Positions 9,192 to 51,083 of a DNA stretch of 64,000 nt are shown piece after piece (position 1 is the stretch's first letter; every line of letters starts with the position of its first letter). The notes beneath the pieces are model-generated. The model worked only from the letters and a program-made list of their open reading frames with translations. It searched no databases and was not told the DNA's origin. The stretch is from an uncultured Gemmatimonadales bacterium (GTDB lineage Bacteria > Gemmatimonadota > Gemmatimonadetes > JACCXV01 > JAHWKZ01). Location of the stretch: assembly GCA_947259315.1 (NCBI GenBank), contig CAMYLR010000008.1, forward strand, positions 31,013 through 95,012, in the 5' to 3' direction. The translations under genes were made by a program, and so were the position numbers.

Positions 9192-9267
9192 TGGTGGAGC
9201 TGATCGGAATCGAACCGACGACCTCCTGAGTGCGATTCAGGCGCTCTCCCAGCTGAGCTACAGCCCC
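9192..9267 (-). tRNA. tRNA-Ala (anticodon CGC)
   Basis: The reverse complement GGGGCTGTAGCTCAGCTGGGAGAGCGCCTGAATCGCACTCAGGAGGTCGTCGGTTCGATTCCGATCAGCTCCACCA folds as a cloverleaf. It has the G3:U70 Ala identity pair, the anticodon loop AUCGCAC, and an encoded CCA. Confidence 0.85.
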
Positions 9268-30591: not shown

Positions 30592-33081
30592 TCAGTTGCT
30601 GATCCGGATTCCTGCCAGCGCGGTACGAGGTAGGCCGGGCCGCGCGCCAGCCGGCCGGCGAGCGACCACGTACTCTGCGGCAGTGAGGTTCTGTACCCCT
30701 GCAAACAGCGTCGCCCGCGGCGACAGGGTGTACTCGCTACCCACGCTCCAAACGGTGTAATCATCCGTCCCTTGTCCAGGGGGAATCGCACCACGGCCGG
30801 CCTGTGTTCGAGCGACGCTAACGTGATCGGCCGTGAGCTCGATCATCCAAACCGGGTGGGCGATACCGATCGCTGCATGCAATTGATGGCGCGGGACGTA
30901 GGGTAGCTCGTCGCCTTTTTCGACCGCGCCCCACGGTGGGAACGAGCTTTCAAAGCTGGCCCCAAACTCGGTCGAGGTATAGGTGTAAGCCAACCGGACG
31001 GGCGCTGACCATCGCTGGCTGGAGCCAAGCGGCTGATCACTGTTTAGCGCCAACTCGATGCCGGACACGCGCGCGGCGCCACCGTTGAACAATTCCCCCT
31101 CGCCGGTGTCATCGCCCACCGCCAGCGTGGCTTGGCCGAGGATGTTCTCGTAGTCGTTGTAGAACACGGTGGCTTGTGCTTCTGTGTGTGACCCGGTCAG
31201 TCGCAACCCAAGCTCGTAATTGAGGCTTCTCTCGGCTTCCGTGTCGTCGTCGGCTCCCGGTCCCGGCGGACCAAATCCGCGGTGCACACCACCAAAGAGA
31301 TCGATTCCCGCGTCAACCTCGTACCCGACCCCGAGACCGGGGATCCACGCGTCGACGTGCGTCTCCCTCACCCTCTCCGGCGCAATCCGCGTCGGATCGT
31401 CTACCGCGTAATCGGTACGTGAAAAGTCTATCGATTCGTAACGGACGCCGGGGGTCAGGCTCCACCGGCCGATCTCGACGCGATCCTGAAAGAACACGGC
31501 TTGCGCGGTTGCTTCACTAACTCGATTGGATTGGCTACCTGGCGATCCAGCGCTTGTCCGCGCCATCTCGCCCGCCAACATCTGGAAGCCATCCTCGTGT
31601 TGGAATCGATCTTCTTCATCTCTGTGGTATCGGATGCCAACCTCTATCTCGTGCTCGCTGAAACCAGCCTCAGCCACCAACCCGATCACGGATTGCACCC
31701 CGGTCGATGCGTAGTCGCGGTTGTTGGCTCGCACAGCCAACGCGTCCACGTCGCTGTCGCTTCCGCGTAACACAGCCAACGCGCCCAAATGCTGGTCGGG
31801 ATCGCTCAGGACATCAGCGATCGCAACGCCATTGACTCTCTCCAGCTTGTACCAGTTCCTGCCAAAATCGTTGTGATACACAACCGTGTTCACATCCGGT
31901 CCGGCCGGAAACCGTATCGCGTGTCGTAGCTGGAACTGTCGGTGATCGGCACGCATTACGTCCTCACTCGAGGCCCGATACCGACGAAACGGTTGACTCC
32001 GGAAGTCGGCCTCCGTCAGCCCGAGGTACGTCTCGTTCGACGTCTCGTCATAGACTCCGAGCTTTAACTCCAGCTGCTGGTACAAATGGGCTTCACGGTC
32101 GGTGTTGATCCGCAGCTTCAACCGATAGTCGTGAACATCAAAGCCCGTGTCACCCCCCCCGTCGAGCTCTTTGAAACCGCCGGTCCGAATCTGGTACGTC
32201 TCCGCCAACCAACCGAAGTGATCGCGTGCATCGCCGATTCCGACCCACGCTTTCCCCGTCTCGTCAGCGCCAGCCTCGAAGTCGCCAAACCATTCCAGTT
32301 GATCGGGAATCGGGGTAGAGACAAAGTTGATCGCCCCCCCGATGGTGTGCGGTCCGTACTTGATCTGGCTCGAGCCCTTGCGGATCTCGATGGCGTTCAT
32401 CCGGCCTGCCACCGGGGCGTAGTAGGCGGCTGGCGCAGCGTACGGAGCCGGAGCGATCAACACGCCATCTTCCATGAGCGTGATCTTCGAGCTGCGCTCT
32501 GAGCCGGTGCCGCGGATCCCGATATTGGGTCGCAGCCCATAACCCTCTTCTTCTTGGATGTTGACCCCAGGGATCTCGCGCAGAAAGGCGTTCACATCGT
32601 CATAGAGCAGTTTGCGCCGATTGAGCTCCTCCGGCCCCAAGTAGTGTGCTGAGCCGTGAATGCGACCCAAACCGTCCTTGCCACCCACCACGCTGAAGCG
32701 GTTGAGAACAACCTCGATCGGCGGGGCACGCAGCGCACCGGGTCCAAGTGCAACCTCAGTTGTCCGCTGTTCGCCAGCCGCGAGCTCTACCGTCAAGCGC
32801 TGGGTTTGCCAGCCCAATGCCCTGACCTCGACCTGCACTCGTCCGGCCGGCAGTCGATCCAATACCGCCCAGCCCCCACTGTCCGACACCGCTATCCGAT
32901 CGACGGTCGGGACTTCGACCCGTGCGCCGGCGATCGGATCTCCAGCCTCAGACATGACCCGGGTCTTGAGCTGGCCAGTGCCCTGAGCAAAGGCGCCAGG
33001 TCCCACCAGCAGCAGGCTTGCACCCAGCACACAAAGCGCCGCGCCTATTCGTTGAGATCGATTCTCAATCATCGGCTTCAC
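30592..33081 (-). CDS. TonB-dependent outer membrane receptor with a CarboxypepD_reg-like N-terminal domain
   Basis: Signal peptide, then a carboxypeptidase-regulatory-like domain (GARVEVPT...). Plug domain (YGPHTIGGAINFVS), a 22-strand barrel, and a C-terminal aromatic residue. Confidence 0.85.
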   Translation of the reverse strand: MKPMIENRSQRIGAALCVLGASLLLVGPGAFAQGTGQLKTRVMSEAGDPIAGARVEVPTVDRIAVSDSGGWAVLDRLPAGRVQVEVRALGWQTQRLTVELAAGEQRTTEVALGPGALRAPPIEVVLNRFSVVGGKDGLGRIHGSAHYLGPEELNRRKLLYDDVNAFLREIPGVNIQEEEGYGLRPNIGIRGTGSERSSKITLMEDGVLIAPAPYAAPAAYYAPVAGRMNAIEIRKGSSQIKYGPHTIGGAINFVSTPIPDQLEWFGDFEAGADETGKAWVGIGDARDHFGWLAETYQIRTGGFKELDGGGDTGFDVHDYRLKLRINTDREAHLYQQLELKLGVYDETSNETYLGLTEADFRSQPFRRYRASSEDVMRADHRQFQLRHAIRFPAGPDVNTVVYHNDFGRNWYKLERVNGVAIADVLSDPDQHLGALAVLRGSDSDVDALAVRANNRDYASTGVQSVIGLVAEAGFSEHEIEVGIRYHRDEEDRFQHEDGFQMLAGEMARTSAGSPGSQSNRVSEATAQAVFFQDRVEIGRWSLTPGVRYESIDFSRTDYAVDDPTRIAPERVRETHVDAWIPGLGVGYEVDAGIDLFGGVHRGFGPPGPGADDDTEAERSLNYELGLRLTGSHTEAQATVFYNDYENILGQATLAVGDDTGEGELFNGGAARVSGIELALNSDQPLGSSQRWSAPVRLAYTYTSTEFGASFESSFPPWGAVEKGDELPYVPRHQLHAAIGIAHPVWMIELTADHVSVARTQAGRGAIPPGQGTDDYTVWSVGSEYTLSPRATLFAGVQNLTAAEYVVARRPAGARPGLPRTALAGIRISN

Positions 33082-33149
33082 GATACCGCCAAAAGCGGAC
33101 CTGTCAAGTCTGTTTTTTGGTAACGATTATCGAATGGGGATCGTTGGTG

Positions 33150-34000
33150 CTACGGCTCGATTAGCCTGAGGTGACTCTGCTGCTCGATCTCGATCGATCG
33201 GCGCGCAACCAAACCGTCTTCAACTATGACCCGCGTGATCTCAGCCTCGGCGTTGGTCTCCACTCGGATTGTCTGGCCCCGTTCGTGAGCGAAGTACATC
33301 CGCCCTCGCACCCGAATTCGCTCTTCGGCCGAGACGGCGCCGGAATCGTCGTCCTTCTCGGGGGCAGTAGGCAGATAGACGTCACCGTCGAAGGCGATGA
33401 TCGCGATCGGTTCACCGTCCTCCTCGGTTAGATCCTCGAGGACGTAGTTGGACGTCGTGACGACCGGTTCGGCCTCTGGCGAGAGCACCTTGACCTGCTG
33501 AGTCCAACTGTCACCGATCTTGAGCGCTCGTTGGGGGAAAACCGGTTGTGTCTGCTCCAAGTAGGTGCGGAAATCCATATCGTGGAACAGGGTCTTCGCG
33601 GTCTCGAGGTTGGTGACGTCGATGATCCTGCCCTGAGGGCTGATCTCGAGGTTGATCGTGAAGTCGCCGGGTTCTGACTCCTCTTCGTCTTCGACCCTGG
33701 CGGGTAGGTGATAGGTCCATGCCAGCAGATAGTTGCCGCTCGGGGTTAGATCGGTCGCGACTTCGTCAACGCGCAGGCGCCGCTCATACGTTCTCGTGGT
33801 CTTGTCTGCGGTGACCGTATCGGGATAAGTCGCGGTACCGTTGGCGGTGTACTCGTAGTAGAGGGTGTCTCCCACTTGGTAGTGGAGTCGCAGCGCTACC
33901 TGGGGCTCGTCGGGGGCCTCTCGACAGCCGGTCAGGCACAAAGCGGCCAGCAGCAGCGGAAGCAGCTGCCTCTTTCTATCCGGGTTTAGGGAGTTCATGG
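33150..34000 (-). CDS. Hypothetical lipoprotein
   Basis: The internal ATG gives MNSLNPDRKRQLLPLLLAALCLTGC (lipobox LTGC). The longer track ORF (to 34403) overlaps the anti-sigma gene and is probably an over-extension. Confidence 0.5.
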
Positions 34001-34480
34001 CGCTTCGGCGAGACTCGCCAGGATGACGCCCTTGGACAGTGGATCGACGCTGCCGACGGCAACCGTGGCTCGCTCGAAGAACTCGTAATCGTCCTCCCAT
34101 CCACTGTCGAAAGCGACCGCCGGAACCGGCGGTTCCGATTCCATGGGCTCGCTGCGGGCTCCCCACCACACGCCGATCAATAGCACGATCGAAGCCGCCA
34201 TACCGAGAGCCGGAGCCATCCAACGCGTCGCTCGTGGCGCGCTGCGAGCAACGAACGGCCACCGCGCCCAAAAGGAGTCCCAGTACCCGATCGGCGGCCG
34301 TGGCGGATCGGCACCATACCAGCGGAGCGAACTCAACAACGCGCCACACTCCTCGTGCTGCATCCGGCAGGCCTCGCACCTCCATAGATGCACCTCGGCA
34401 CACCGCGCGCGGGCGGGATCGAGCCGTCCGTCCAGCAGTTCGTACAGCGTCTCCCTATCGAGGTGCTGGGTTTGACTCAT
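33995..34480 (-). CDS. Anti-sigma factor (zinc-finger type, single TM)
   Basis: HxxxCxxC (EVHLWRCEACR), TM segment MAPALGMAASIVLLIGVWW, and an SD (GGAGG) upstream of the ATG at 34480. Confidence 0.6.
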   Translation of the reverse strand: MSQTQHLDRETLYELLDGRLDPARARCAEVHLWRCEACRMQHEECGALLSSLRWYGADPPRPPIGYWDSFWARWPFVARSAPRATRWMAPALGMAASIVLLIGVWWGARSEPMESEPPVPAVAFDSGWEDDYEFFERATVAVGSVDPLSKGVILASLAEAP

Positions 34481-34575
34481 GCGTCGCGATTCCTCCATTT
34501 CGGACTCCATTACCTAGACGCAAACCCCGAGCCGATGTTCAAGCGCATCATCGTGACCCGCCCCGGCGAACCACC

Positions 34576-35181
34576 TCAGCGGTGCTTGGAGAGAATGCGG
34601 CGCAGTTTCTCACGCCCGTAAAACAGGTTGGATCGAACCGTCGCCGTCGGGCAACCGCACTTCCGAGCCACCTCTTCAGTCGACAACCCCTCGATATCGT
34701 GAAGTACCACGATCTCCCGCTGCCGCGGCGGCAGCACAGCAATCGCCCGCTCGAGCTTCAACAGGAACTCCCGATGCTCGACCCGCTGGTCGGGCGATTC
34801 GGAGCGGTGATCGGCAAAGCCTTCCTCGAACCCCTCGGGTGATTGAGACTCGACCGCAGTCGACCGCTGGCGGCGACGTAGATGGTCCAAAGCGGTGTTG
34901 ACGATGATCCTCCGGGCCCACGGGAAGAACGCCTCCGGTCGTGATAGCCGGGCGAGGTTTTGATACACCTTCACGAACCCCTCTTGCAGCACGTCGTTGG
35001 CATCCTCATGCGATCCCGTGTACCTCCGGGCCAACGCGTAGAAAGCGTCTTGATATGCCGATATGAGATCGCGAAAGGCGCGTGCGTCATGACCCGCGGC
35101 TCGAGCGACCAAATCGGCCAAGCGCTCGTCCACGGCCGCCGTTGTTGAGGTTTGTCTGATTGAGGTCGTCGAGTCTGTCAT
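34576..35181 (-). CDS. ECF (group IV) RNA polymerase sigma factor
   Basis: Sigma-70 region 2 (VLQEGFVKVYQNL, FFPWARRIIVNTALD) and region 4 (LSTEEVARKCGCPTATVRSNLFYGREKLRR). Confidence 0.85.
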   Translation of the reverse strand: MTDSTTSIRQTSTTAAVDERLADLVARAAGHDARAFRDLISAYQDAFYALARRYTGSHEDANDVLQEGFVKVYQNLARLSRPEAFFPWARRIIVNTALDHLRRRQRSTAVESQSPEGFEEGFADHRSESPDQRVEHREFLLKLERAIAVLPPRQREIVVLHDIEGLSTEEVARKCGCPTATVRSNLFYGREKLRRILSKHR

Positions 35182-36899
35182 AGCGCCTTTCCGCGCGTGC
35201 CCTGCTCCTCAACACCTAAGATCCAAGCTGCGACCCGGCCGATCGGAAGGTCGTCTCCGGGCGTCCAATACGCACGATCCTCAAACACTTCGGACGAGGT
35301 ATCGGCTGGTTGGCCTTCGATCTCACTGATGATCAACCGAGCTCGCTCACGCCATCGCTCGAGGTTGGCCGGTTGCAGGTCAACCCAGCCCGCATCAGCC
35401 CAGCGCTCGATGCTCTCCGGCGTCAGCTCCTCGCGCGCCTCTTCGAAATACACCGGAATCTTCATCTCGGGACCCCTGATCAACCGGCCGCTCGGCAATC
35501 GGATCGGAAGCCCGATCGATAGAATGTGCGATCTCAGCTTCGTATCCTGGGTGACGATCTCAGCGCACGCGGCGCTCATTTCTTCTGGATCACTGTTTGC
35601 CACCGCCTCGAGACTGCCCCGCGCGCGCCTCAGCAGAGCGGCCTCGTAGAGGAGCTTCGACAAACGCGGTGGACCGAGCATTTCGAACGCCACCGACTCG
35701 AAACCGGTATCGGCTTCCAGCTCCCGCATCTGCTCAAGTGCTCGGTGGCGCATGACACCCGCTCGATACGTTGGTCCAAGCGTCGAACCGTCCAGCGCGG
35801 CGACCACCTCACGGCCCGTGGTGCCACCCTTGATCTCAGCGATTACGTCGGCGGCGATCTCTTCAGGCGTGACGAACTCCATCTGCCCAAGCGCGGTCAC
35901 CGTCTCGAACTCCTCGCAAGAGAAGACCCCGTTCTCCCCGGTATCGATAAAAACCGACTCCAGCAGCGCCTGCCCTCCCTCACTGCCCTGCACCGGCGCC
36001 CAACCGGTTGCATCGTCGGCTATCGCCGCACCCACCTCCACGGCGCGCTCAGTCTCGCAGTCGTAGAGCGGTATCGGGCGTCCACCCACGGTGACCGGAC
36101 CAGCCCCGATTTCTTTCCAGGCGATCGCCGCGCTCGGCTTGATCTCCTTCACGATCGGGGCGTCCGGCGTACGAGCCAACAGGTAGAGCAGCATCGAGTG
36201 AGCGCCCGCGATCGACGACTTGGTTAGCAGGACGCGGCTCGGTTTCTCCTCGGAGTGCGTGTACGGGATGTTCAACCCCATGCCCCCCGAACCAGTGGTG
36301 CCCACTTTCAGATAGAAAGACGCCCCGGCTGCTTTGAGCGACGCCCTGAGAACCTGGACGTGCCGGATCAATTGCGGGAGCGAGAGCGTCGTCAGGTGTT
36401 GTTCGATGACGTCAGACAACTCCTGAGCGCCAGCCGTGCCGGCGTCGACGCGGGCCACAACGTTCTGCACTCGGCGAACGCTGTAAAAAACATCCTGGTA
36501 TGCGAATGCCGTTGCGGTGTTAATGCAGTCGATGACCACGTGGGGGCGTGAGTCAGTTAACAACCGATACAAGTATGCCTCGGACAAGATCTCGCTGCTG
36601 AGCTCCTTCATTGTGTCGTCAATGATCTCGCGGCGCGTGGATCGGTCCACGAGCAGCACGGTGCGGTTCTCGTCCTTCAGCGAGTCACGTACGAACACAT
36701 TGCCCCAGGCGGGTTCGAACCCAACGCCTTCGGACGAGAATCTCTCCCTAAGTGCTGCTACAGCTTCCTCGGCCTCGTTTCGCCGAAGCGAATGGATCAC
36801 AACCGCCTCTGGCGCCTCCGGGATCAACGCCCTGGCGATCGCTCTCCCAACCAATCCCCATCCGCCGAGGATGAGCACCCTGCGATCCCTAAGATCCAT
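35178..36899 (-). CDS. Hypothetical protein, 573 aa: an N-terminal Rossmann-type NAD(P)-binding fold plus a large uncharacterised C-terminal region
   Basis: RRVLILGGWGLVGRAIARAL is a GxGxxG dinucleotide-binding motif; KVGTTGSGGMG is glycine-rich. No family assigned by inspection. ATGA overlap with the ECF sigma gene and an 11-nt overlap with rluB. Confidence 0.6.
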   Translation of the reverse strand: MDLRDRRVLILGGWGLVGRAIARALIPEAPEAVVIHSLRRNEAEEAVAALRERFSSEGVGFEPAWGNVFVRDSLKDENRTVLLVDRSTRREIIDDTMKELSSEILSEAYLYRLLTDSRPHVVIDCINTATAFAYQDVFYSVRRVQNVVARVDAGTAGAQELSDVIEQHLTTLSLPQLIRHVQVLRASLKAAGASFYLKVGTTGSGGMGLNIPYTHSEEKPSRVLLTKSSIAGAHSMLLYLLARTPDAPIVKEIKPSAAIAWKEIGAGPVTVGGRPIPLYDCETERAVEVGAAIADDATGWAPVQGSEGGQALLESVFIDTGENGVFSCEEFETVTALGQMEFVTPEEIAADVIAEIKGGTTGREVVAALDGSTLGPTYRAGVMRHRALEQMRELEADTGFESVAFEMLGPPRLSKLLYEAALLRRARGSLEAVANSDPEEMSAACAEIVTQDTKLRSHILSIGLPIRLPSGRLIRGPEMKIPVYFEEAREELTPESIERWADAGWVDLQPANLERWRERARLIISEIEGQPADTSSEVFEDRAYWTPGDDLPIGRVAAWILGVEEQGTRGKAL

Positions 36900-37686
36900 C
36901 CTGCCCCGTCCTTAGATTCTCCTCGCCGCGACCCAAACCAACCAACGCCATCAGTTCCTCCACCTCTCCTCGTTCCAACCAACGCCACTGGCCCGCTGAC
37001 AGATCCGTCGCCTCCAGGAACGCGTACCGAGTGCGCACGAGTCGCTCCACGTAACCTCCACAGGCAGCGATAATACGTCGCACCTCACGCTTCCGGCCCT
37101 CCGACAACTCCAGCTCTATCATCCAGTGATCGGTCGTCGTCGATCGACTGCGGTCGAGGCACCGAAACCGATAGGGCCCAGTCATGCCATCATCCAATTC
37201 GAGTCCTCGCTCCGATCCTGCAGCCAGCCGATCCATGTCGAATCGCCCCGTCACATCGACTCGATAGACACGTTTGACACCCCATCTTGGATGAGTCAAT
37301 CGGTGCGACAACTCACCGTCAGTCGTGAACAACAGAACACCTTCCGTGTCGCGATCCAATCGACCCACGTAGATCAGTCGACCTCGATCGGGCTCGGGGA
37401 TGAATCCGTACACCGTTTTGCCACCCCGAGGATCTCGGCGGGTGGTCAGCACCCCAGCCGGCTTGTTGAACAACAGACACTCCGGCATAGATCGCGTGCC
37501 GTTCCCAAACTCGGCCTCCACGATCTCGCCTCGATAGGTGACCCGGTCCGAGGGCCCAACGACAGTCCCCGGCTGCGTAACGACACAACCGTTCACAGCT
37601 ACCAGCCCGGCCGCGATCAAGTCCTCGCATTTGCGGCGGGACGCAATCCCGGCTTGAGCGAGATAACGCTGCAGTCGAACGGTCAC
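36889..37686 (-). CDS. rluB: Pseudouridine synthase, RsuA/RluB family (S4 domain + catalytic domain)
   Basis: S4 domain LQRYLAQAGIASRRKCEDLI; catalytic YVGRLDRDTEGVLLFTTDGEL. Confidence 0.85.
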   Translation of the reverse strand: MTVRLQRYLAQAGIASRRKCEDLIAAGLVAVNGCVVTQPGTVVGPSDRVTYRGEIVEAEFGNGTRSMPECLLFNKPAGVLTTRRDPRGGKTVYGFIPEPDRGRLIYVGRLDRDTEGVLLFTTDGELSHRLTHPRWGVKRVYRVDVTGRFDMDRLAAGSERGLELDDGMTGPYRFRCLDRSRSTTTDHWMIELELSEGRKREVRRIIAACGGYVERLVRTRYAFLEATDLSAGQWRWLERGEVEELMALVGLGRGEENLRTGQDGS

Positions 37687-38303
37687 TCACTTTCCTCGGC
37701 GACCGCGTCCCCGGAGTCGAACTCCAACTCCTCCTGGCGCTCACGATCGGCGAAGAGAACCTCCAGCTCTTCCGGCTTGGGAAGCGCGTCGAGGCCCGGC
37801 AAACCGAAGTACTCGAGAAAGTGGCCCGTAGTGCGGTACAGGAGCGGCCGACCGAGCCCCTCTCCCCGACCGGCGACCTGTACCAGACCGCGTTCCAGAA
37901 GCGTCCTCAGAACGGCGTCCACCGACACGCCACGGATCGACTCGAGCTCGACTCTGGCTACTGGCTGCTTGTAAGCGATGATCGCGAGCGTCTCTAGCGC
38001 GGGGCGAGACAGCCGCGGACGCGGTGCGGCCGCACGGAGCCGCTCGATCCAAGCCGCATAATCCGACCGGGTGACGATTTGAAACCCATCGGCGATGCGT
38101 TTGATTCCGAATGCTCTGCGCTGCAGAGCGTAGTCCGTCTGCAGGTCGCGGACGATGTCTTCGATCATCGCCGGCGTCGTCTCCCCGATCAAACCCGCCA
38201 GCTGCCCCGAGGTGAGTGGCTCGTCGGCAGCGAATAACAGCGCTTCGACGATGTGCTTGGTATCGAGAACCGCCCCGGTGGGAGCAGCGTTTGCATCAGT
38301 CAT
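37683..38303 (-). CDS. scpB: Segregation and condensation protein B
   Basis: IVEALLFAADEPLT and ETLAIIAYKQPVARVELESIRGV (winged helix). Starts at the internal ATG (MTDANAAPTG) with an ATGA junction to scpA. Confidence 0.85.
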   Translation of the reverse strand: MTDANAAPTGAVLDTKHIVEALLFAADEPLTSGQLAGLIGETTPAMIEDIVRDLQTDYALQRRAFGIKRIADGFQIVTRSDYAAWIERLRAAAPRPRLSRPALETLAIIAYKQPVARVELESIRGVSVDAVLRTLLERGLVQVAGRGEGLGRPLLYRTTGHFLEYFGLPGLDALPKPEELEVLFADRERQEELEFDSGDAVAEESE

Positions 38304-39052
38304 TTCTTGAATCCCTCGCCTACGAAGACGTTGATATCGCCGAACCGCTCGGCCTGCCGCAACCGAATCTCGCCCTCGCGAGCCATCTCCAGCAGAGCTA
38401 CAAAGGTCACGATCCAATGGGAGCGGGGTTCACCCACCACGAATAGCTCGCGGAAAGAACTCCGACCATCTCGCTTCAATCGACTGCGAATGAAATCGAC
38501 CTTCTCCTCGATCGTGACCGCGAGCGGCTCCAGATGGTGGACCCGATCCCGGGCTGCTTGCTCCATAACGTCGGCAAAAGCCCGCAATAGATCGCCGAGT
38601 GTGGCCCGATTGGCGGGTTCCTCCTCGGCTCTCGCTTCGTCCTCCGCCAGCCACTCCCGGTATCCTCTGCTGAACAACAGTCGACGCGACGATTCATGGT
38701 CCCGGAGGTGTTCGGCGATCTCCTTGAACTGCTGGTACTCGATGATCTTCAGCACCAGCTCTCGCCGCGGATCCTCCAGCTCCTCGTCGTCCAAATCCGG
38801 CTGCGGGAGCAGCATCTGAGCCTTTATCCGCATCAACGTCGCTGCCATCAACAAGAACTCGCCGGCACTCTCGAGTTTTTCACGCGTCATCGCCTCGACG
38901 TATTCGAGAAACTGCTCGGTGATCAGCGCTATCGGTATGTCATAGATGTCCACCTCGTTCTTCTTGACGAGGTAGACCAAGAGGTCGAGTGGGCCCTCGA
39001 AGTCGAGGGTCTCGAGCTTTACGCTGTGACCGGTCGATTCGACGTCTGCCAT
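38300..39052 (-). CDS. scpA: Segregation and condensation protein A (kleisin)
   Basis: LETLDFEGPLDLLVYLVKKNEVDIYDIPIALITEQFLEY. Confidence 0.85.
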   Translation of the reverse strand: MADVESTGHSVKLETLDFEGPLDLLVYLVKKNEVDIYDIPIALITEQFLEYVEAMTREKLESAGEFLLMAATLMRIKAQMLLPQPDLDDEELEDPRRELVLKIIEYQQFKEIAEHLRDHESSRRLLFSRGYREWLAEDEARAEEEPANRATLGDLLRAFADVMEQAARDRVHHLEPLAVTIEEKVDFIRSRLKRDGRSSFRELFVVGEPRSHWIVTFVALLEMAREGEIRLRQAERFGDINVFVGEGFKK

Positions 39053-40089
39053 AGGCCGATCGCCTCACGTACTTCGCGCATCGTTTCTCGGGCCACCTTC
39101 TGAGCTGCCTCACGTCCAGTGGCGAGTATTTCGGCCAGCTGATTCGGGTCGGATCGCAACTCAGCCGCTCGCTCCCGCATCGGTGCAAACGTCTCGCTCA
39201 ACACATCAGCCATTAGCATCTTGTCTTCGTAACAGCCGATCTCGGCGCTTCGGCACTGTTGTTCGACCCGATCGATCGTGGTCGAATCGGAAAAGTACCC
39301 GTGCCACGCGAACACGTTACACACCTCGGGCCGACCAGGGTCCTCGCGACGTTTGCGTTGTGGGTCGGTAAACGCAGTCGCCATCCGCTCCCGGATCTGC
39401 TCCGGCGATTCGAGTATCCCGATGTGGTTTCCCTTGGTCTTGGACATCTTGCTCTGGCCGTCGAGACCCAGCACCCGCGGGGTCTCGGTCAGCAGAACCT
39501 GAGGTTCCGGAAATGTCTCGCCGAATGCGTTGTTGAAACGCCGGGCCAACATGCGGGCCAGCTCGAGGTGCTGCGACTGGTCCTCCCCGACCGGAACACG
39601 ATCGGCCTTGTAGAGCAAAATGTCTGCCGACTGGAGCACGGGGTACATGAGGAGCCCGGCGTTGACCGCTTCTCCGCCGCCGGCAGTCTTGTCCTTGAAC
39701 TGGGTCATTCTTTGCAGCTGTCCAAGCGGTGCGAGCGATGTCAGGATCCAAGCCAACTCGGTGTGCTCGGGAACTTCAGACTGGATGAACATGTGACTCT
39801 TGTCAGGATCCAGACCGGCGGCGATCAGTGAAACCAACATGTCCTCGGTCAGCTTCCGGAGTTCCCGGGGATCGAACGGACTGGCGATAGCATGGTAGTC
39901 TACGATCGGGTAGAAGCACTCGTACTCGTCCTGCAACCGGACCCAGTTCCGAACCGCACCCAGGTAGTTCCCGATGTGCAGCTCGCCTGTCGGCTGGATG
40001 CCGCTGAGGACGCGGGGCTTTACCGCCGCGGGTTCACTCGACGTACTCACCCGATCCCCAGCGCGAGGCGCACCATCGTCCAGGTCCAT
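39019..40089 (-). CDS. trpS: Tryptophan--tRNA ligase
   Basis: Class I HIGH (GELHIGNYLG) and KMSKS (SKMSKT). The ATG (MDLDDG...) at 40089 overlaps the upstream M50 protease gene by 43 nt. The track ORF, extended to 40605, lies almost entirely inside that gene and is rejected. Confidence 0.85.
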   Translation of the reverse strand: MDLDDGAPRAGDRVSTSSEPAAVKPRVLSGIQPTGELHIGNYLGAVRNWVRLQDEYECFYPIVDYHAIASPFDPRELRKLTEDMLVSLIAAGLDPDKSHMFIQSEVPEHTELAWILTSLAPLGQLQRMTQFKDKTAGGGEAVNAGLLMYPVLQSADILLYKADRVPVGEDQSQHLELARMLARRFNNAFGETFPEPQVLLTETPRVLGLDGQSKMSKTKGNHIGILESPEQIRERMATAFTDPQRKRREDPGRPEVCNVFAWHGYFSDSTTIDRVEQQCRSAEIGCYEDKMLMADVLSETFAPMRERAAELRSDPNQLAEILATGREAAQKVARETMREVREAIGLWQTSNRPVTA

Positions 40090-40688
40090 ATGCGGGTCAC
40101 GCCAAACACGACGCCCCCAACCGGTGTGAACACAAGAAGCAGCAGGACGATGATCAAGCCGTAACGACCCGTTGACTGATACGAATAGGCCATCGGACGC
40201 GGCAGGAAGTTGGCTACCACGTGCGAGCCGTCCAGCGGGGGCACAGGCAGCATATTGAACACCGCCAGGATGAAATTGATGAAGATCCCGTACTCGCAAA
40301 GCAACTGAATCCCCGGCGATATAGCCCCGCCAGAGATAACCCGAGTGACAAACAGAGCGGCAGCAAACGCGAATGCCAGCAGGATGTTCGACGCCGGACC
40401 CGCCAACGATACGGTAATATCTCCCCACTTGCGGTCGCGGAAGTTCTCCAGCGTGACCGGTACCGGCTTGGCCCAACCAAACAGTATGCTCGAGCCACTC
40501 AATAACAGGAACAGCGGCACCAGAATCGAGCCAAAGAGGTCGATGTGTGGGACCGGGTTTAGGGTCAGCCGCCCGAGCATCCGTGCCGTGGGATCCCCCC
40601 ACCACTCAGCCACGTACCCGTGAGCGTACTCATGCACGATCACCGAAAAGAGCAGAACCGGCAGCAGGAAAACAAGCGATTCGTTCAT
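40047..40688 (-). CDS. Site-2 protease family (peptidase M50) membrane metalloprotease
   Basis: HEYAHG (HExxH), NMLPVPPLDG (LDG motif), and multiple TM segments. Confidence 0.8.
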   Translation of the reverse strand: MNESLVFLLPVLLFSVIVHEYAHGYVAEWWGDPTARMLGRLTLNPVPHIDLFGSILVPLFLLLSGSSILFGWAKPVPVTLENFRDRKWGDITVSLAGPASNILLAFAFAAALFVTRVISGGAISPGIQLLCEYGIFINFILAVFNMLPVPPLDGSHVVANFLPRPMAYSYQSTGRYGLIIVLLLLVFTPVGGVVFGVTRIWTWTMVRLALGIG

Positions 40689-40882: not shown

Positions 40883-41143
40883 ATGCCGAACGTGAAGTCT
40901 GCCGCCAAACGCGCCCGTACAAACGACCGGCGTCGCCTGCAAAACCGCGATGCCCGCTCGCGTCTTCGTACCGCCATCAAGAAGGTCCGTCAGGCCGGCT
41001 CGAGCGAAGACGCCAGGTCGGCTCTTCGAGATGCGGAGAGCCTGCTCGACCGCTTGACCGGTCGGGGAATCATCCACAAGAACGCCGCCGCCCGGCACAA
41101 ATCTCGTCTAAGCGCGCACGTAGCCAAGCTCGAAGCGCGCTAG
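40883..41143 (+). CDS. rpsT: 30S ribosomal protein S20
   Basis: MPNVKSAAKRARTNDRRRLQNRDARSRLRTAIKKV... The track ORF has a spurious 41-codon 5' extension. Confidence 0.9.
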   Translation: MPNVKSAAKRARTNDRRRLQNRDARSRLRTAIKKVRQAGSSEDARSALRDAESLLDRLTGRGIIHKNAAARHKSRLSAHVAKLEAR

Positions 41144-41937
41144 CGATCCCCTTCGCCGTTGAGCGTGTCGCGCACGATCTCGGCGATTCCACGTCGTACC
41201 TCAGCGCTCCCCGAGGCGAGCCCACCAGGGTAATCACGCTCGGCCAAAGGCTCGATATCGGTGACTGCACAACCCGGATTTTGAACCCCCGAGCCATATG
41301 CATCCAGCGTCATCAGCTGGTCGACCTCCTGGCGCGACAATCGATTGACGTTCCCGAGCAGGTGCGCGACCAATAGTGATCGCGCCGCCTGTTCGAGAGA
41401 CTCCATGACGTTGATCGAAACCGCCAACGAACTCCCGTAGGCAACCGCCCCGTGGTTGGCGAGCAGAAGCGCGTCGTGGGCTCTGACGTACGGTGCCAGC
41501 TGTTCCGCCAGCTCATCGGTGGACGGTGTCCCGTACGGGACGATCGGTACCCAACCCAGTGTGGCGATGATCTCCGGAATAACGCACTCGTTGAGGGATT
41601 GACCCGCAATGGCAAAACCGGTCGCGATGGGTGGATGGGCGTGGACGATCGCTGCAACGTCACTACGCAGTTCGTAGATCTTCAGATGCATCTTCAACTC
41701 ACTCGATGGTCGACCGGTCCCCGCTAACCGCTGGCCGGCCATGTCGGTAACCACCAGCGACTCGGGTGCGAGAAACCCCTTGCTGACCCCGGACGGGGTG
41801 GCTAGCACCCTCGCCTTGTCTAACCGGACTGATATGTTGCCCTCCGCACCGCCCACTAATCCGCGCCCATACAGCCGACGTCCAACCTCGACCATCTCGG
41901 CTCGCGTCCGTTCCAGGGTCTCGGCTGGATTCGCCAT
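41140..41937 (-). CDS. Class II aldolase/adducin family protein (fuculose-1-phosphate aldolase / MtnB-like)
   Basis: GNISVRLD, IVHAHPP and metal-binding His residues. Its start overlaps the rtcB stop. Confidence 0.75.
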   Translation of the reverse strand: MANPAETLERTRAEMVEVGRRLYGRGLVGGAEGNISVRLDKARVLATPSGVSKGFLAPESLVVTDMAGQRLAGTGRPSSELKMHLKIYELRSDVAAIVHAHPPIATGFAIAGQSLNECVIPEIIATLGWVPIVPYGTPSTDELAEQLAPYVRAHDALLLANHGAVAYGSSLAVSINVMESLEQAARSLLVAHLLGNVNRLSRQEVDQLMTLDAYGSGVQNPGCAVTDIEPLAERDYPGGLASGSAEVRRGIAEIVRDTLNGEGDR

Positions 41938-43385
41938 TATCCCTTTACAACCCCAATCGGCTTGAGCTCAGCCACGCGGCGGCTCACTCCAGCCGCCTCC
42001 ATCACCTCGACCACGTCCGCAACGTCCTTATACGCATGCGGCATCTCCTCAGCCACCGTTCGCATGCCCGTCGCCCTGACCACGACCCCCTTGGCCTCCA
42101 TTTCCCCGATCAAATCACGTCCACGAGAGCGTTTCTTGGACTGTGTACGACTCATCTTACGACCGGCGCCATGACACGTGGAGCCGAAGGTCTTCTCCAT
42201 CGCACCGGCCGCCCCCGCACAGACGTAGGAGTAGTTACCCATGCTACCCGGTACCAACACGGGTTGCCCAACGTCGCGGTACGCTGGCGGTACCTCTGCA
42301 TGTCCTGCTGGGAACGCTCGCGTTGCGCCTTTCCGGTGAACGCACACTGACATTCTCCGTCCATCGAGCTCGTGCTCCTCGATCTTGGCGATGTTGTGAC
42401 AGACATCGTAGACGAGCCGCATGCCCAGCCTAGCCGCGGGAAGGCGAAAGATCTCTTGAAAAGCTTCGCGGACCTTGTGCAACATGACCTGTCGGTTGCA
42501 CCAAGCGTAGTTGGCCGCACACCTCATGGCGCCCAAATAAGAGCGACCGTCGGGTGAGTCGAGCGGCGCTGCAGCGAGCTGAACATCGGGCAGCCGATAG
42601 CCGAAGTCCGCGAGCCGGGGCCGAATTCTCTTGAGTGAGTCATCACAAACCTGATAGCCCAACCCCCGCGACCCGGAGTGGATCATTACCACGATTTGAT
42701 CCGGAAACAGCCCATAGGCGTTAGCCAGGGTGGTGTCAAACAATCGAGCCACCCGCTGCACCTCGAGAAAGTGGTTGCCGGATCCCAGCGTGCCAACCTG
42801 CCCGAGCCCGCGCTTCTTGGCACGATCAGAGACGCAGTCGGGATCGGCGCCGCCCAGACGACCTCCGGCCTCTGTGTGTTCGAGATCGAGCGTGTCTCCA
42901 TAACCCTGCTCGATGGCCCACCGGGATCCGTTCACGAGCACGTTTTCCAGGTCGCCCCGAGATAGCTTGCGGATAGCACCCGATGCTCCAACGCCACTGG
43001 GCACGAGTTGATACAACCGATCGATGAGCGATCGACGCACCGTGTCATCGAGATCAGCGAACACCAGATCGCTGCGCGCCAAACGAACGCCGCAATTGAT
43101 GTCGTATCCCACACCACCGGGTGAAATGGCACCACTTCGCGCGTCGGTGGCGGCGACACCACCGATCGGAAATCCGTAGCCCCAGTGGATATCGGGCATC
43201 GCCAGCGACCACCCGACGACACCCGGCAGGCAGGCGACATTGCGGACCTGCTCGAGGCTATGATCGGTCCGAATCGCGGCCATGAGCTCTTCGGATGCGA
43301 ATATTCGTCCCGGTACATGCATCTCACCGGTCTTTGGGATCTCCCAGAGATAGGGTTCGATCTTTTTGACTTCGATTTCGTTCAT
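41937..43385 (-). CDS. rtcB: RNA-splicing ligase RtcB (3'-phosphate/5'-OH RNA ligase)
   Basis: GYDINCGVR, GSGNHF, HSGSRGLG, a nucleophilic His region (STCHGAGR), and a metal-binding Cys. Confidence 0.9.
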   Translation of the reverse strand: MNEIEVKKIEPYLWEIPKTGEMHVPGRIFASEELMAAIRTDHSLEQVRNVACLPGVVGWSLAMPDIHWGYGFPIGGVAATDARSGAISPGGVGYDINCGVRLARSDLVFADLDDTVRRSLIDRLYQLVPSGVGASGAIRKLSRGDLENVLVNGSRWAIEQGYGDTLDLEHTEAGGRLGGADPDCVSDRAKKRGLGQVGTLGSGNHFLEVQRVARLFDTTLANAYGLFPDQIVVMIHSGSRGLGYQVCDDSLKRIRPRLADFGYRLPDVQLAAAPLDSPDGRSYLGAMRCAANYAWCNRQVMLHKVREAFQEIFRLPAARLGMRLVYDVCHNIAKIEEHELDGRRMSVCVHRKGATRAFPAGHAEVPPAYRDVGQPVLVPGSMGNYSYVCAGAAGAMEKTFGSTCHGAGRKMSRTQSKKRSRGRDLIGEMEAKGVVVRATGMRTVAEEMPHAYKDVADVVEVMEAAGVSRRVAELKPIGVVKG

Positions 43386-46706: not shown

Positions 46707-46793
46707 TGGTGCCCAAGGGGAGATTCGAACTCCCACGGCCTTTCGGCCACTGCCCCCTCAAGACAGCGTGTCTACCAATTCCACCACTTGGGC
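46707..46793 (-). tRNA. tRNA-Leu (anticodon GAG), class II with a long variable arm
   Basis: The reverse complement GCCCAAGTGGTGGAATTGGTAGACACGCTGTCTTGAGGGGGCAGTGGCCGAAAGGCCGTGGGAGTTCGAATCTCCCCTTGGGCACCA folds as a cloverleaf. Anticodon stem CTGTC/GGCAG, loop TTGAGGG. CCA encoded. Confidence 0.85.
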
Positions 46794-50360: not shown

Positions 50361-51083
50361 TTATCCGGCGTTTCGATCGGTGGCGAGGGCGAACGTCACG
50401 CCGACGACACGGCCAGTGCCGCCGACGATCAGCGCACTGGCAGCGGCGTGGAGCGTGGCTCCGCTCGTGGCGACGTCATCGATCAGACCAACCGTCGCAC
50501 TCGACTCGAACGACCTTCGGCGCGCGAACGCGCCGCTCACGTTGGCAACGCGATCGGCCCGGCCAAGCCCAACCTGTGGCGGCGTTGTTCGCGATCTCTC
50601 GAGCGCGTTGACGACCGGACGATCGATCCTCATCGCCAACCGGTCGGCGATCAGCCGAGCTTGGTTGAACCCGCGTTCACGGTACCTGAGGGGATGAAGC
50701 GGCACCGGCACGAGGAGGTCGGGTTGGTGACCTCGAAGTCGGATCGTGTCGGCCATCTTCTCGGCGCATATGTCCGCCAGGTGACGCCAGCCGCCATACT
50801 TGATCGCCCGCACGATCGCTTCCGCCACGCCCTGATAGCGAACGGCAGCGACCGCGGTGAGCTCCGCCGGCCAGTCGCTACACCGCCAGCAGACCATCGC
50901 TCGATGCGCCAGGACCAACCCGCAGCGGGCGCAACGTGGATCCCCGAGCGGTTCCAGCCGCGAAATGCACAGGCTGCACACGGCGGGACGGGCGAATGCG
51001 AGGCGATCGTCACAGTGAACGCACCGCGGGGGCAACAGCAAGTCCGTGGCGAACTCGACGACCCCCGCTAAGATGTTGTCCAA
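50361..51083 (-). CDS. ComF-family protein (double zinc ribbon + phosphoribosyltransferase domain)
   Basis: CVHCDDR...CSLC...CARCG...CWRCS zinc ribbons. PRTase motif LIDDVATSGATL. Confidence 0.75.
   Translation of the reverse strand: MDNILAGVVEFATDLLLPPRCVHCDDRLAFARPAVCSLCISRLEPLGDPRCARCGLVLAHRAMVCWRCSDWPAELTAVAAVRYQGVAEAIVRAIKYGGWRHLADICAEKMADTIRLRGHQPDLLVPVPLHPLRYRERGFNQARLIADRLAMRIDRPVVNALERSRTTPPQVGLGRADRVANVSGAFARRRSFESSATVGLIDDVATSGATLHAAASALIVGGTGRVVGVTFALATDRNAG

What the first reader, a model, noticed from the sequence alone, without database searches (positions are those of the whole stretch)
35178..36899. 573-aa Rossmann-fold protein of unknown function between rluB and the ECF sigma
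The N-terminal RRVLILGGWGLVGRAIARAL is a classic dinucleotide-binding turn. A glycine-rich KVGTTGSGGMG element follows. Past about residue 300 there is a large C-terminal region with no motif I can assign.

The gene is overlapped at both ends (rluB 11 nt, ECF sigma 4 nt), so it is expressed as part of that operon. It is not an obvious member of a common SDR or saccharopine-dehydrogenase family by inspection.
Basis: seen in the sequence. Interest (0 to 1): 0.5.

Follow-up and report, generated by a model that had tools for sequence, protein, structure and literature searches.

The report
Uncharacterised Ind2-family reductase in trpS operon
A real, highly conserved 573-residue enzyme-like protein whose front half has a standard NAD(P)-binding dehydrogenase fold and whose back half resembles no solved structure; it belongs to a large, almost unstudied family whose distant members sit beside tryptophan-tRNA synthetase genes.

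Summary
The ORF is real: minus strand, 35178-36899, 573 aa. It overlaps rluB by 11 nt and an ECF sigma gene by 4 nt. Local Pfam and NCBIfam give no hit. The identical database protein and all listed homologues carry a newer tag, PF27054 "Beta_methylindole_red_C". From memory, I take that name to come from Ind2, the NADH-dependent 3-methylindolepyruvate reductase of indolmycin biosynthesis.

In Gemmatimonadota and Calditrichota the gene sits in a trpS-scpA-scpB-rluB-X string. In a 27-33%-identical subfamily (Clostridia, Patescibacteria), TrpRS is directly adjacent in 13 of 31 groups and tRNA-Trp in 4.

Best reading: an NAD(P)H-dependent 2-oxoacid/2-hydroxyacid oxidoreductase, possibly acting on an indole or aryl substrate. 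The substrate and physiological role are unproven. Interest is moderate.

The parts
35178..36899 (-). Gene X: 573-aa protein of the PF27054 (Beta_methylindole_red_C) family
   Evidence: ORF and translation. The identical protein P0001 and all 120 listed homologues carry PF27054; the family name appears.
36144..36899 (-). N-terminal SDR-fold NAD(P)-binding domain (residues 1-252)
36846..36866 (-). GGWGLVG dinucleotide-binding turn (residues 12-18, GxxGxxG)
   Evidence: G12, G15 and G18 are invariant in 33 sequences down to 27% identity.
36246..36308 (-). Family signature loop K198-V-G-T-T-G-S-G-G-M-G-L-N-I-P-Y-T-H-S-E-E218, between strand beta5 and the helix that carries the catalytic Tyr/Lys in SDRs
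   Evidence: Y196, G203, G205 and G208 are invariant. K198, T201, G206, M207, T214 and H215 are at least 90% conserved across both subfamilies. This is the lowest-confidence stretch of the model (pLDDT<50 for 202-225), as expected for a ligand-ordered loop (inference).
36219..36221 (-). K227, candidate equivalent of the SDR catalytic lysine. The residue four positions before it is Val/Leu/Met, not Tyr.
   Evidence: K227 is at least 90% conserved and lies at the N-terminus of helix 220-242. The assignment to the SDR Lys is inferred from the order of secondary-structure elements.
35181..36143 (-). C-terminal domain (residues 253-573), mixed beta then mostly helical, with no solved structural relative
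36889..37686 (-). rluB-type pseudouridine synthase, whose stop overlaps the X start by 11 nt
   Evidence: Directly upstream of X in about 16 of 82 loci.
37683..38417 (-). scpB
   Evidence: PF04079 with E 4.5e-51. Present in the string in 14 loci.
38300..39052 (-). scpA
   Evidence: PF02616 with E 2.3e-35. Present in the string in 14 loci.
39019..40050 (-). trpS (tryptophan-tRNA ligase), first gene of the conserved string. The real start is probably the GTG at 40050, not the start of the 528-aa ORF.
   Evidence: TIGR00233 at 325.9 bits against a cut-off of 176.75. The domain starts at residue 196 of the listed ORF, and the M50 peptidase ORF overlaps the upstream part. trpS is in the string in 10 loci.
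34576..35181 (-). ECF sigma factor, whose start overlaps the X stop (ATGA)
   Evidence: The coupling is seen only in close Gemmatimonadales relatives (L007, L008 and the window).

Best explanation
Gene X encodes a soluble two-domain NAD(P)(H)-dependent oxidoreductase of the PF27054 family. The only characterised member I know of is Ind2, the NADH-dependent reductase that converts 3-methylindolepyruvate to indolmycenic acid.

Shown:
- The N-terminal about 250 residues adopt an SDR fold with a GxxGxxG dinucleotide-binding turn.
- The family keeps a conserved Lys (K227) at the start of the helix that carries the catalytic Tyr/Lys in SDRs, but it has no YxxxK tyrosine.
- In that region it has an invariant Gly-rich loop (K-x-G/S-T-T/S-G-x-G-G-M-G) followed by a conserved Thr214-His215.
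- The C-terminal about 320 residues are a family-specific domain with no solved relative.

Inferred:
- The nicotinamide cofactor binds the Rossmann domain.
- The Gly-rich loop and the Thr-His pair close over the substrate. His215 (or Thr201/Tyr196) acts as the acid/base and K227 positions the nicotinamide ribose.
- The acidic C-terminal domain forms the substrate cap and/or an oligomer interface.
- By analogy with Ind2, the reaction is reversible hydride transfer between NAD(P)H and the C2 carbonyl of a 2-oxo acid, giving the 2-hydroxy acid. The substrate is possibly an arylpyruvate or indolepyruvate type.

In this genome the gene is translationally coupled into a housekeeping string (M50 peptidase)-trpS-scpA-scpB-rluB-X-ECF sigma. 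It is therefore expressed constitutively with core genes, not as part of an antibiotic cluster.
For: Family membership:
- The identical protein and all 120 listed homologues carry PF27054, named Beta_methylindole_red_C.
- Ind2 is described as the NADH-dependent ketone reductase of 3-methylindolepyruvate (PMC8246080; PMC5925218).

Fold and motifs:
- The motifs are conserved down to 27% identity.
- The C-terminal half is acidic, which fits a small-molecule enzyme rather than an RNA binder.

Link to tryptophan at family level:
- In the 27-33%-identical subfamily, TrpRS is the dominant neighbour. It is found in 13 of 31 dereplicated groups, and the next commonest neighbour is found in 4.
- TIGR00233 scores above its cut-off for the three adjacent genes tested.
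- tRNA-Trp lies in 4 groups.
- A Trp repressor, chorismate-mutase-domain methyltransferases and B12 radical-SAM enzymes occur nearby.
- The indolmycin cluster itself is reported to carry a TrpRS resistance gene (PMC5069768).

Window context:
- trpS heads the same-strand string containing X in the window and in 9 other loci from Gemmatimonadota, Calditrichota and a 'Caldisericaceae' MAG.
- In the abundant gut-Clostridia member an auxin-efflux-carrier-family transporter follows X, consistent with an organic-acid substrate.
Against: - I could not obtain the Ind2 sequence. The link to Ind2 rests on the Pfam family name plus my own knowledge that 'beta-methylindole-3-pyruvate reductase' (EC 1.1.1.397) is Ind2. 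No named Ind2 appeared among the top 120 hits of the profile search.
- The '_C' in the Pfam name suggests the model may cover only the C-terminal domain.
- The window subfamily is only 27-33% identical to the TrpRS-linked subfamily, and substrate specificity can change over that distance.
- Within the window's own subfamily the only Trp link is trpS three genes upstream in an ancient housekeeping string. I could not test how often that string occurs without X.
- In Ignavibacteria, which make up most of the 82 loci, X instead lies divergent from EIIA-hisS-SpoU.
- Intermediate members have unrelated neighbours.
- No aminotransferase or aromatic-pathway gene is consistently adjacent.
- The catalytic-residue assignments are inferred from conservation and secondary-structure order, and the key loop is modelled with pLDDT<50.
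Confidence: 0.4

Rival explanations
1. It is an NAD(P)-dependent oxidoreductase of this fold, but it acts on a housekeeping substrate unrelated to tryptophan or aryl-2-oxo acids, such as a lipid, cofactor or cell-envelope precursor. On this reading, the resemblance to Ind2 reflects only shared ancestry, and the trpS in the string is inherited synteny.
For: - Neighbourhoods of the window-type subfamily are dominated by generic housekeeping genes and differ between phyla (rluB/scpAB/cmk; EIIA/hisS/SpoU; isochorismatase/PHP; EF-G/MiaB; ispG/leuS).
- About 50% identity is maintained between phyla, with many invariant residues, as for core enzymes.
- No Trp-pathway gene other than trpS recurs.
Against: - The only functional anchor for the family (its Pfam name) and the only strongly recurrent neighbour anywhere in the family (TrpRS, with tRNA-Trp) both point to tryptophan.
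- trpS appears again in the window-type string.
Confidence: 0.3
2. It works directly with TrpRS and tRNA-Trp. Possibilities are a tRNA-dependent reductase acting on Trp-tRNA(Trp), analogous in logic to glutamyl-tRNA reductase or NRPS reductase domains, or a Trp-specific quality-control or supply step coupled to charging.
For: - TrpRS is immediately adjacent in 13 of 31 distant groups, in several different gene orders, and 5 groups carry two TrpRS copies.
- tRNA-Trp genes lie in 4 groups. In L110 the order is tRNA-Trp, 30 nt, X, 15 nt, TrpRS.
- The family occurs in Patescibacteria, which have little secondary metabolism (the statement about their metabolism is my own knowledge).
- Translation-related neighbours are frequent in the window-type subfamily (rluB, hisS, SpoU methylase, EF-G, MiaB, leuS).
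- The extended-SDR-like N-terminal motif resembles thioester/ester reductase domains (inference).
Against: - The C-terminal domain is acidic in nearly all members, and no RNA-binding fold was detected.
- The one biochemical precedent, Ind2, is described as reducing a free keto acid with NADH.
- A TrpRS copy in a cluster is also what self-resistance to a TrpRS inhibitor would give.
Confidence: 0.12
3. It is a nucleotide-sugar-modifying extended SDR (CapD/PglF/Pen-type 4,6-dehydratase or epimerase) for envelope polysaccharide synthesis.
For: - The best sequence-profile hits in the PDB are UDP-GlcNAc 4,6-dehydratases (3pvz E 1.5e-4, 6bwc E 2.6e-3).
- One homologue carries a precomputed PF02719 hit (P0095).
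- The GxxGxxG spacing is of the extended-SDR type.
Against: - The sequence matches cover only residues 4-57.
- The position after strand beta5, where from memory CapD/PglF enzymes have S-T-D-K, reads G-T-T/S-G.
- No PF02719 hit for X in the local scan.
- No glycosyltransferase or sugar-pathway neighbours recur.
- The C-terminal domain is unrelated to the extended-SDR substrate domain.
Confidence: 0.08
4. It is a non-catalytic NAD(P)H-sensing regulator (NmrA-like) that modulates the downstream ECF sigma factor.
For: - The X stop overlaps the sigma start (ATGA), and this is conserved in the closest Gemmatimonadales loci.
- The YxxxK tyrosine is missing, as in some regulatory SDR-fold proteins.
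Against: - The sigma coupling is absent outside close relatives; cmk or unrelated genes follow X elsewhere.
- The extreme conservation of loop residues across phyla fits catalysis better than a lineage-specific regulatory role.
Confidence: 0.05

Closest known systems
Ind2 of Streptomyces griseus indolmycin biosynthesis (beta-methylindole-3-pyruvate reductase; namesake of Pfam PF27054)
   Same: Same Pfam family by precomputed annotation. An NAD(H)-dependent carbonyl reductase is what an SDR-fold N-terminal domain would be expected to be. Both lie in a genomic context that includes a TrpRS gene.
   Different: Ind2 sits in an antibiotic gene cluster with a C-methyltransferase and a resistance TrpRS. 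X sits in a housekeeping string (trpS-scpAB-rluB) with no methyltransferase or other biosynthetic genes. Direct sequence comparison with Ind2 could not be made. X's substrate is unknown.
TrpRS-linked PF27054 subfamily (Clostridia, Patescibacteria, Wukongibacter; uncharacterised)
   Same: Full-length homology: P0238 has E 3.5e-55 and aligns 2-568 of X to 4-553. It has the same two-domain architecture and the same invariant residues.
   Different: Only 27-33% identity. The turn is GAGQIG instead of GGWGLVG. There is a 3-residue insertion after the YTH motif, and the motif reads HGD instead of HSEE. TrpRS is directly adjacent and tRNA-Trp is often present, whereas in the window trpS is three genes away.
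Classical and extended short-chain dehydrogenases/reductases (e.g. MalC 6nkh, FabG-type reductases, PglF 5bju, Pen 6bwc)
   Different: 10-18% identity. No SDR Pfam or NCBIfam model reaches threshold. No YxxxK tyrosine and no S-T-D-K. A roughly 40-residue helical insertion after strand beta3 (residues 79-117) and a 20-residue Gly-rich loop. An extra 320-residue C-terminal domain without a PDB relative.

Membership tests
Pfam PF27054 Beta_methylindole_red_C (Ind2-type reductases) | Significant match to the family HMM | tested here: met
   The precomputed annotation of the 100%-identical protein P0001 and of all 120 listed homologues is PF27054.1; the name is given. The local Pfam copy lacks this model: X, P0238 and P0338 all give no hit. 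I therefore could not see the score or the region covered.
Pfam PF27054 Beta_methylindole_red_C (Ind2-type reductases) | Direct sequence homology to the characterised enzyme Ind2 | not testable with these tools
The primary paper (PMC4352800) is not held. No named Ind2 appears among the top 120 profile hits.
Pfam PF27054 Beta_methylindole_red_C (Ind2-type reductases) | NADH-dependent reduction of 3-methylindolepyruvate to indolmycenic acid | not testable with these tools
   This is a biochemical property, described for Ind2 in PMC8246080.
Pfam PF27054 Beta_methylindole_red_C (Ind2-type reductases) | Location in an indolmycin-type cluster (C-methyltransferase, resistance TrpRS, further tailoring genes) | tested here: not met
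   The window neighbours are an M50 peptidase, trpS, scpA, scpB, rluB, an ECF sigma and a TonB receptor. There is no methyltransferase or other biosynthetic gene. The trpS is the single one in a housekeeping string.
Short-chain dehydrogenase/reductase superfamily (SDR) | Rossmann-type SDR fold with an N-terminal Gly-rich dinucleotide-binding turn | tested here: met
Short-chain dehydrogenase/reductase superfamily (SDR) | Catalytic Ser...Tyr-x-x-x-Lys motif | tested here: not met
   K227 is conserved, but the residue four positions before it is Val/Leu/Met. No YxxxK occurs in the helix at 220-242. T201 occupies the Ser-like position after strand beta5; that equivalence is inferred.
Short-chain dehydrogenase/reductase superfamily (SDR) | Match to an SDR family HMM (adh_short, Epimerase, KR, Polysacc_synt_2) above threshold | tested here: not met
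   Zero Pfam families at E<=0.01. The only NCBIfam hit is FabG at 16.3 bits against a cut-off of 222.
CapD/PglF-type UDP-sugar 4,6-dehydratases | Homology across the catalytic domain, including the S-T-D-K and MxxxK active-site motifs (recalled from memory) | tested here: not met
   The profile-to-PDB match is limited to residues 4-57. The corresponding position reads G-T-T/S-G.

The most novel reading that the evidence does not exclude
The PF27054 family is not primarily an antibiotic-pathway reductase. It is a widespread partner of tryptophanyl-tRNA synthetase. On this reading, a conserved tRNA-Trp / TrpRS / X module in Patescibacteria and Clostridia, and a trpS-linked housekeeping copy in Gemmatimonadota and Calditrichota, carry out a previously unrecognised Trp-specific step tied to tRNA charging. 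That step could be a tRNA-dependent reduction, repair or removal of a Trp-like mis-substrate, or salvage of Trp from indolelactate or indolepyruvate. It would use a new protein fold in the C-terminal domain.
Probability: 0.12. Interest if true: 0.8.

Novelty: new variant of a known kind. Interest (0 to 1): 0.5.

Why it matters
Databases label it only 'short-chain dehydrogenase' or 'hypothetical'. It has no solved structure, and about 320 residues resemble no known fold.

The single experimentally studied relative makes a precursor of a TrpRS-inhibiting antibiotic. The recurrent pairing with TrpRS and tRNA-Trp genes in very different bacteria suggests either a broad reservoir of indolmycin-like pathways with built-in resistance genes, or an unknown housekeeping link between a redox enzyme and tryptophan charging.

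Either outcome would be useful for antibiotic discovery, for annotating many uncultivated lineages, and for enzymology of atypical SDRs. The hypotheses are directly testable with cultured carriers such as Melioribacter, Ignavibacterium and Caldithrix (my knowledge that these are cultured; Melioribacter and Caldithrix appear among the locus titles).

Tried and rejected
- Local Pfam-A and NCBIfam scans of X gave nothing usable. The local Pfam copy lacks PF27054.
- PDB by sequence, with a single sequence and with a profile, matched only the first about 55 residues.
- Foldseek against the AlphaFold database was unavailable.
- The literature has no paper mentioning PF27054. The primary Ind2 paper is not held. 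The searches for EC 1.1.1.397/indolmycenate and for TrpRS self-resistance genome mining turned up no paper describing this family.
- tblastn against plasmids found no match.
- The Rfam scan for leader RNAs (for example T-box) upstream of X found none, neither in 11 distant loci nor in the window.
- Longer family members are uninformative as domain fusions. The 3HCDH and PPIase parts look like gene-call chimeras.
- Intermediate-identity members (Syntrophorhabdaceae, Deltaproteobacteria and unclassified MAGs) show no trpS link.
- The conserved antisense ORFs inside X (clusters 1, 2 and 6) were rejected as artefacts of coding conservation.
- The saccharopine-dehydrogenase and CapD-dehydratase assignments were rejected on motif and domain grounds (see the membership test).
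Full report
**Observation**

The window has an ATG-started ORF of 573 codons at 35178-36899 on the minus strand. Its product begins MDLRDRRVLILGGWGLVGRAIARAL and contains YLKVGTTGSGGMGLNIPYTHSEE at residues 196-218.

The upstream ORF (36889-37686, -) is an RluB-type pseudouridine synthase. The downstream ORF (34576-35181, -) is an ECF sigma factor. The rluB TAG stop lies 11 nt inside X, and the X stop and sigma start share ATGA.

Further upstream on the same strand lie scpB, scpA and trpS. The listed 528-aa trpS ORF is over-extended. The TrpRS domain starts at residue 196, and an M50-peptidase ORF (40047-40688, -) overlaps the rest. The probable trpS start is the GTG at 40050. All junctions from trpS to the sigma gene overlap, and the consensus scan finds fewer terminator-like sites than expected by chance. 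Co-transcription is a reasonable inference.

**Is it a known family?**

Local Pfam-A and NCBIfam give no significant hit for X. Sequence searches of the PDB match only residues 4-57, and the best matches are CapD-type UDP-GlcNAc 4,6-dehydratases.

The large protein database, however, returns 7992 hits among the 8000 candidates scored. One is a 100%-identical protein, and full-length relatives at 93-48% identity come from Gemmatimonadota, Calditrichota, Ignavibacteria-type 'Bacteroidetes', Kryptoniota, Fidelibacterota and Acidobacteriota. All 120 listed hits carry the precomputed tag PF27054. That tag is named Beta_methylindole_red_C. Source names are only 'short-chain dehydrogenase', 'NAD(P)-dependent dehydrogenase' or 'hypothetical protein'.

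An exhaustive HMMER scan of 1.84 billion cluster representatives finds 848 clusters at E<=1e-3 and 243 at E<=1e-30. Full-length members go down to about 28% identity.

The local Pfam copy lacks PF27054: X, P0238 and P0338 all give no hit. From my own knowledge, 'beta-methylindole-3-pyruvate reductase' (EC 1.1.1.397) is Ind2 of indolmycin biosynthesis. The papers I could read describe Ind2 as the NADH-dependent ketone reductase that converts 3-methylindolepyruvate to indolmycenic acid (PMC8246080; PMC5925218). I could not obtain Ind2's sequence or the primary paper. The link to Ind2 therefore rests on the Pfam name.

**Anatomy**

An AlphaFold model built on 27 diverse homologues has mean pLDDT 82 and pTM 0.74.

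Across 33 sequences down to 27% identity, the following residues are invariant or at least 90% conserved:
- G12, G15 and G18 of the GxxGxxG turn
- G66
- P119, D124 and N127 after strand beta4
- Y196-x-K198 in strand beta5
- T201-x-G203-x-G205-G206-M207-G208
- T214 and H215
- K227

K227 sits at the N-terminus of the helix (220-242) that carries YxxxK in SDRs. The residue four positions before it is Val/Leu/Met, so the catalytic tyrosine is absent. The 20-residue Gly-rich loop that holds the Thr-His pair is the least confident part of the model (pLDDT<50 for 202-225). I interpret it as a ligand-ordered active-site loop; this is an inference.

**Genomic context of the window-type subfamily**

I took 82 loci (80 from species genomes, one Kryptonia locus and the window), called ORFs de novo, clustered them and annotated the recurrent clusters. 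Two arrangements dominate.

1. In Gemmatimonadota, Calditrichota, KSB1 and a 'Caldisericaceae' MAG, the order is trpS-scpA-scpB-rluB-X. rluB abuts or overlaps X in about 16 loci, scpB and scpA are present in 14 each, and trpS is present in 10. cmk follows X in 10 loci. The ECF sigma follows X only in the window and its closest relatives.
2. In Ignavibacteria and Melioribacter, X stands alone, divergent from a PTS-EIIA-like gene (25 loci), hisS (24) and a SpoU rRNA methylase (21).

Other lineages show different housekeeping neighbours. These are isochorismatase/PHP in Kryptonia, queA/tgt and EF-G/MiaB in an Acidobacteriota MAG, and ispG/leuS or nikR in intermediate members. No metabolic partner is conserved throughout.

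**Genomic context of the distant subfamily**

Members 27-33% identical to X behave differently.
- In Wukongibacter, a TrpRS gene lies 102 nt upstream of the homologue, inside a cluster with B12 radical-SAM enzymes, a carrier protein, a thioesterase and an NRPS.
- In an unclassified MAG, a TrpRS gene overlaps the homologue's start. A second TrpRS lies divergently upstream, and a Trp repressor and a chorismate-mutase-domain methyltransferase are nearby.
- In a third lineage, the homologue is flanked by two class-Ib synthetase genes, which cluster with the TrpRS genes, plus a B12 radical-SAM gene.

The three adjacent synthetase genes in the Wukongibacter and MAG loci exceed the curated TrpRS cut-off (TIGR00233).

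A metagenome scan with a profile of this subfamily gave 48 loci. Together with the loci fetched earlier, these fall into 31 groups at 90% identity. A TrpRS-like ORF is by far the commonest neighbour, found in 13 of 31 groups against at most 4 for any other gene.
- In 8 groups it lies immediately upstream on the same strand; in the other five it lies downstream.
- In 5 groups there are two copies.
- The X proteins of the 13 linked groups share a median of 41% identity, so this is not one recent lineage.
- Four groups also carry a tRNA-Trp(CCA) gene, which is 4 of the 9 tRNAs found. In L110 the order is tRNA-Trp, 30 nt, X, 15 nt, TrpRS.
- Simple binomial estimates put both patterns far beyond chance: below 1e-23 for TrpRS and about 1e-4 to 3e-5 for tRNA-Trp. 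The groups are not fully independent.

This subfamily is found in Clostridia, including a gut lineage seen on hundreds of contigs, and in Patescibacteria. In the gut lineage no trpS is nearby, and X is followed by an auxin-efflux-carrier-family transporter. Another lineage places it after proA-proB-proC, between two ProRS genes. No T-box or other Rfam leader was found.

**Interpretation**

What is shown:
- X is a genuine, strongly conserved member of a large two-domain family.
- The N-terminal half is an atypical SDR fold that keeps the dinucleotide turn and a candidate catalytic Lys, but replaces the Tyr motif with a family-specific Gly-rich Thr-His loop.
- The C-terminal half is structurally unprecedented among solved structures.
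- At family level the one recurrent genomic partner is TrpRS, sometimes with tRNA-Trp.

What is inferred:
- The protein is an NAD(P)(H)-dependent oxidoreductase.
- By analogy with Ind2, it reduces the C2 carbonyl of a 2-oxo acid, plausibly an aryl- or indolyl-pyruvate, or oxidises the corresponding hydroxy acid.

I give about 0.85 to 'NAD(P)-dependent oxidoreductase of this family' and about 0.4 to the full statement including substrate class.

The main rival (0.3) is that the window-type subfamily has a housekeeping substrate unrelated to tryptophan, with trpS in its string being inherited synteny. I could not measure how often trpS-scpA-scpB-rluB occurs without X. A more novel rival (0.12) is direct functional coupling to TrpRS and tRNA-Trp. 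The tRNA-Trp/TrpRS/X modules and the presence in Patescibacteria favour it. The acidic C-terminal domain and the Ind2 precedent count against it. A TrpRS copy in a cluster can also be explained as self-resistance to a TrpRS inhibitor, as reported for indolmycin clusters (PMC5069768). CapD-type sugar chemistry (0.08) and a regulatory role towards the ECF sigma (0.05) are unlikely, for the motif and distribution reasons given above.

**Comparison with the known, and novelty**

X works most like an SDR-type carbonyl reductase and is filed in the Pfam family named after Ind2. It fails the SDR sequence criteria: no HMM hit and no YxxxK. It fails the CapD active-site criterion. It is not in an indolmycin-type cluster. 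Its membership of PF27054 is by precomputed annotation only.

I rate it a new variant of a known kind. It is a housekeeping, trpS-string-embedded branch of a barely characterised reductase family, with an atypical active-site loop and a C-terminal domain of unknown fold.

Interest is moderate (0.5). Nothing here overturns current understanding. But the family is very large, unannotated and structurally unsolved, and its TrpRS/tRNA-Trp linkage gives a concrete, testable lead.

Noticed in passing
window 39019-40688 (-): The listed 528-aa trpS ORF is over-extended. The TrpRS domain starts at residue 196, and a 213-aa M50-peptidase ORF (40047-40688) overlaps the upstream part. The likely trpS start is the GTG at 40050, which overlaps the peptidase stop by 4 nt, so the operon may begin with the peptidase.
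   Followed up: partly
window 30592-35181 (-): Downstream of X lie an ECF sigma (34576-35181), a 417-aa ORF with a weak DUF6263 match (33150-34403, possibly an anti-sigma or partner protein), and a TonB-dependent receptor with a CarboxypepD_reg domain (30592-33081). This looks like a sigma/TonB signalling module. A promoter-like site lies at 33107-33080, just before the receptor gene.
   Followed up: no
window 37683-39052 (-): The scpA and scpB ORFs as listed overlap by 118 nt. The ScpB Pfam match starts at residue 56, so the true scpB start is probably later than the TTG at 38417.
   Followed up: no
window 41140-43385 (-): An RtcB RNA ligase (41937-43385) and a class II aldolase (41140-41937) abut each other upstream of the operon.
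   Followed up: no
window 46707-46793 and 50490-50583 (-): ARAGORN calls a tRNA-Leu(gag) and an unusually long (94-nt) tRNA-Gly(gcc). The Rfam gathering-threshold scan did not report either; it found only the tRNA at 9195-9267.
   Followed up: no
L110 355-3190; also L088 4727-4800, L105 1020-1093, L127 2958-3033: In the distant X subfamily, tRNA-Trp(CCA) genes sit inside or beside the TrpRS-X module. In L110 the order is tRNA-Trp, X, TrpRS, with 30-nt and 15-nt gaps. This is an unexplained three-part module.
   Followed up: partly
L088/L089/L106, L105, L107: These loci carry two TrpRS paralogues, a Trp repressor and a methyltransferase fused to a chorismate-mutase (CM_2) domain, all around the X homologue. 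They could be an indolmycenic-acid-like pathway or a Trp-responsive regulon.
   Followed up: partly
L087 1-19671; L092 1-16176: These are biosynthetic-cluster-like contexts for X homologues. Shared by both loci: a B12 radical-SAM enzyme and a PPDK_N/PEP-utilizer protein. L087 only: a carrier protein, a carbamoyltransferase, a thioesterase and an NRPS. L092 only: an acetyltransferase. They may make uncharacterised TrpRS-targeting natural products.
   Followed up: no
L090/L091 1569-17623: One X homologue follows proA-proB-proC and lies between a bacterial-type and an archaeal-type ProRS, with ArgRS nearby. This is an amino-acid/aaRS context that does not involve tryptophan.
   Followed up: no
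L142-L144 (X at 7001-8629 in L142): The gut Clostridia (CAG:557-type) homologue is listed in 1102 blocks of the assembly collection. It is followed by an auxin-efflux-carrier-family (Mem_trans) transporter and preceded by a long non-coding gap with no Rfam match.
   Followed up: partly
L113, L117/L118, L120, L132; L148 1-2282: Three-subunit molybdenum hydroxylase genes (FAD, 2Fe-2S and MoCo subunits) recur upstream of X homologues in 3-4 distant groups, depending on the subunit, and lie near an intermediate member. This could fit metabolism of an N-heteroaromatic substrate, but it was not examined.
   Followed up: no
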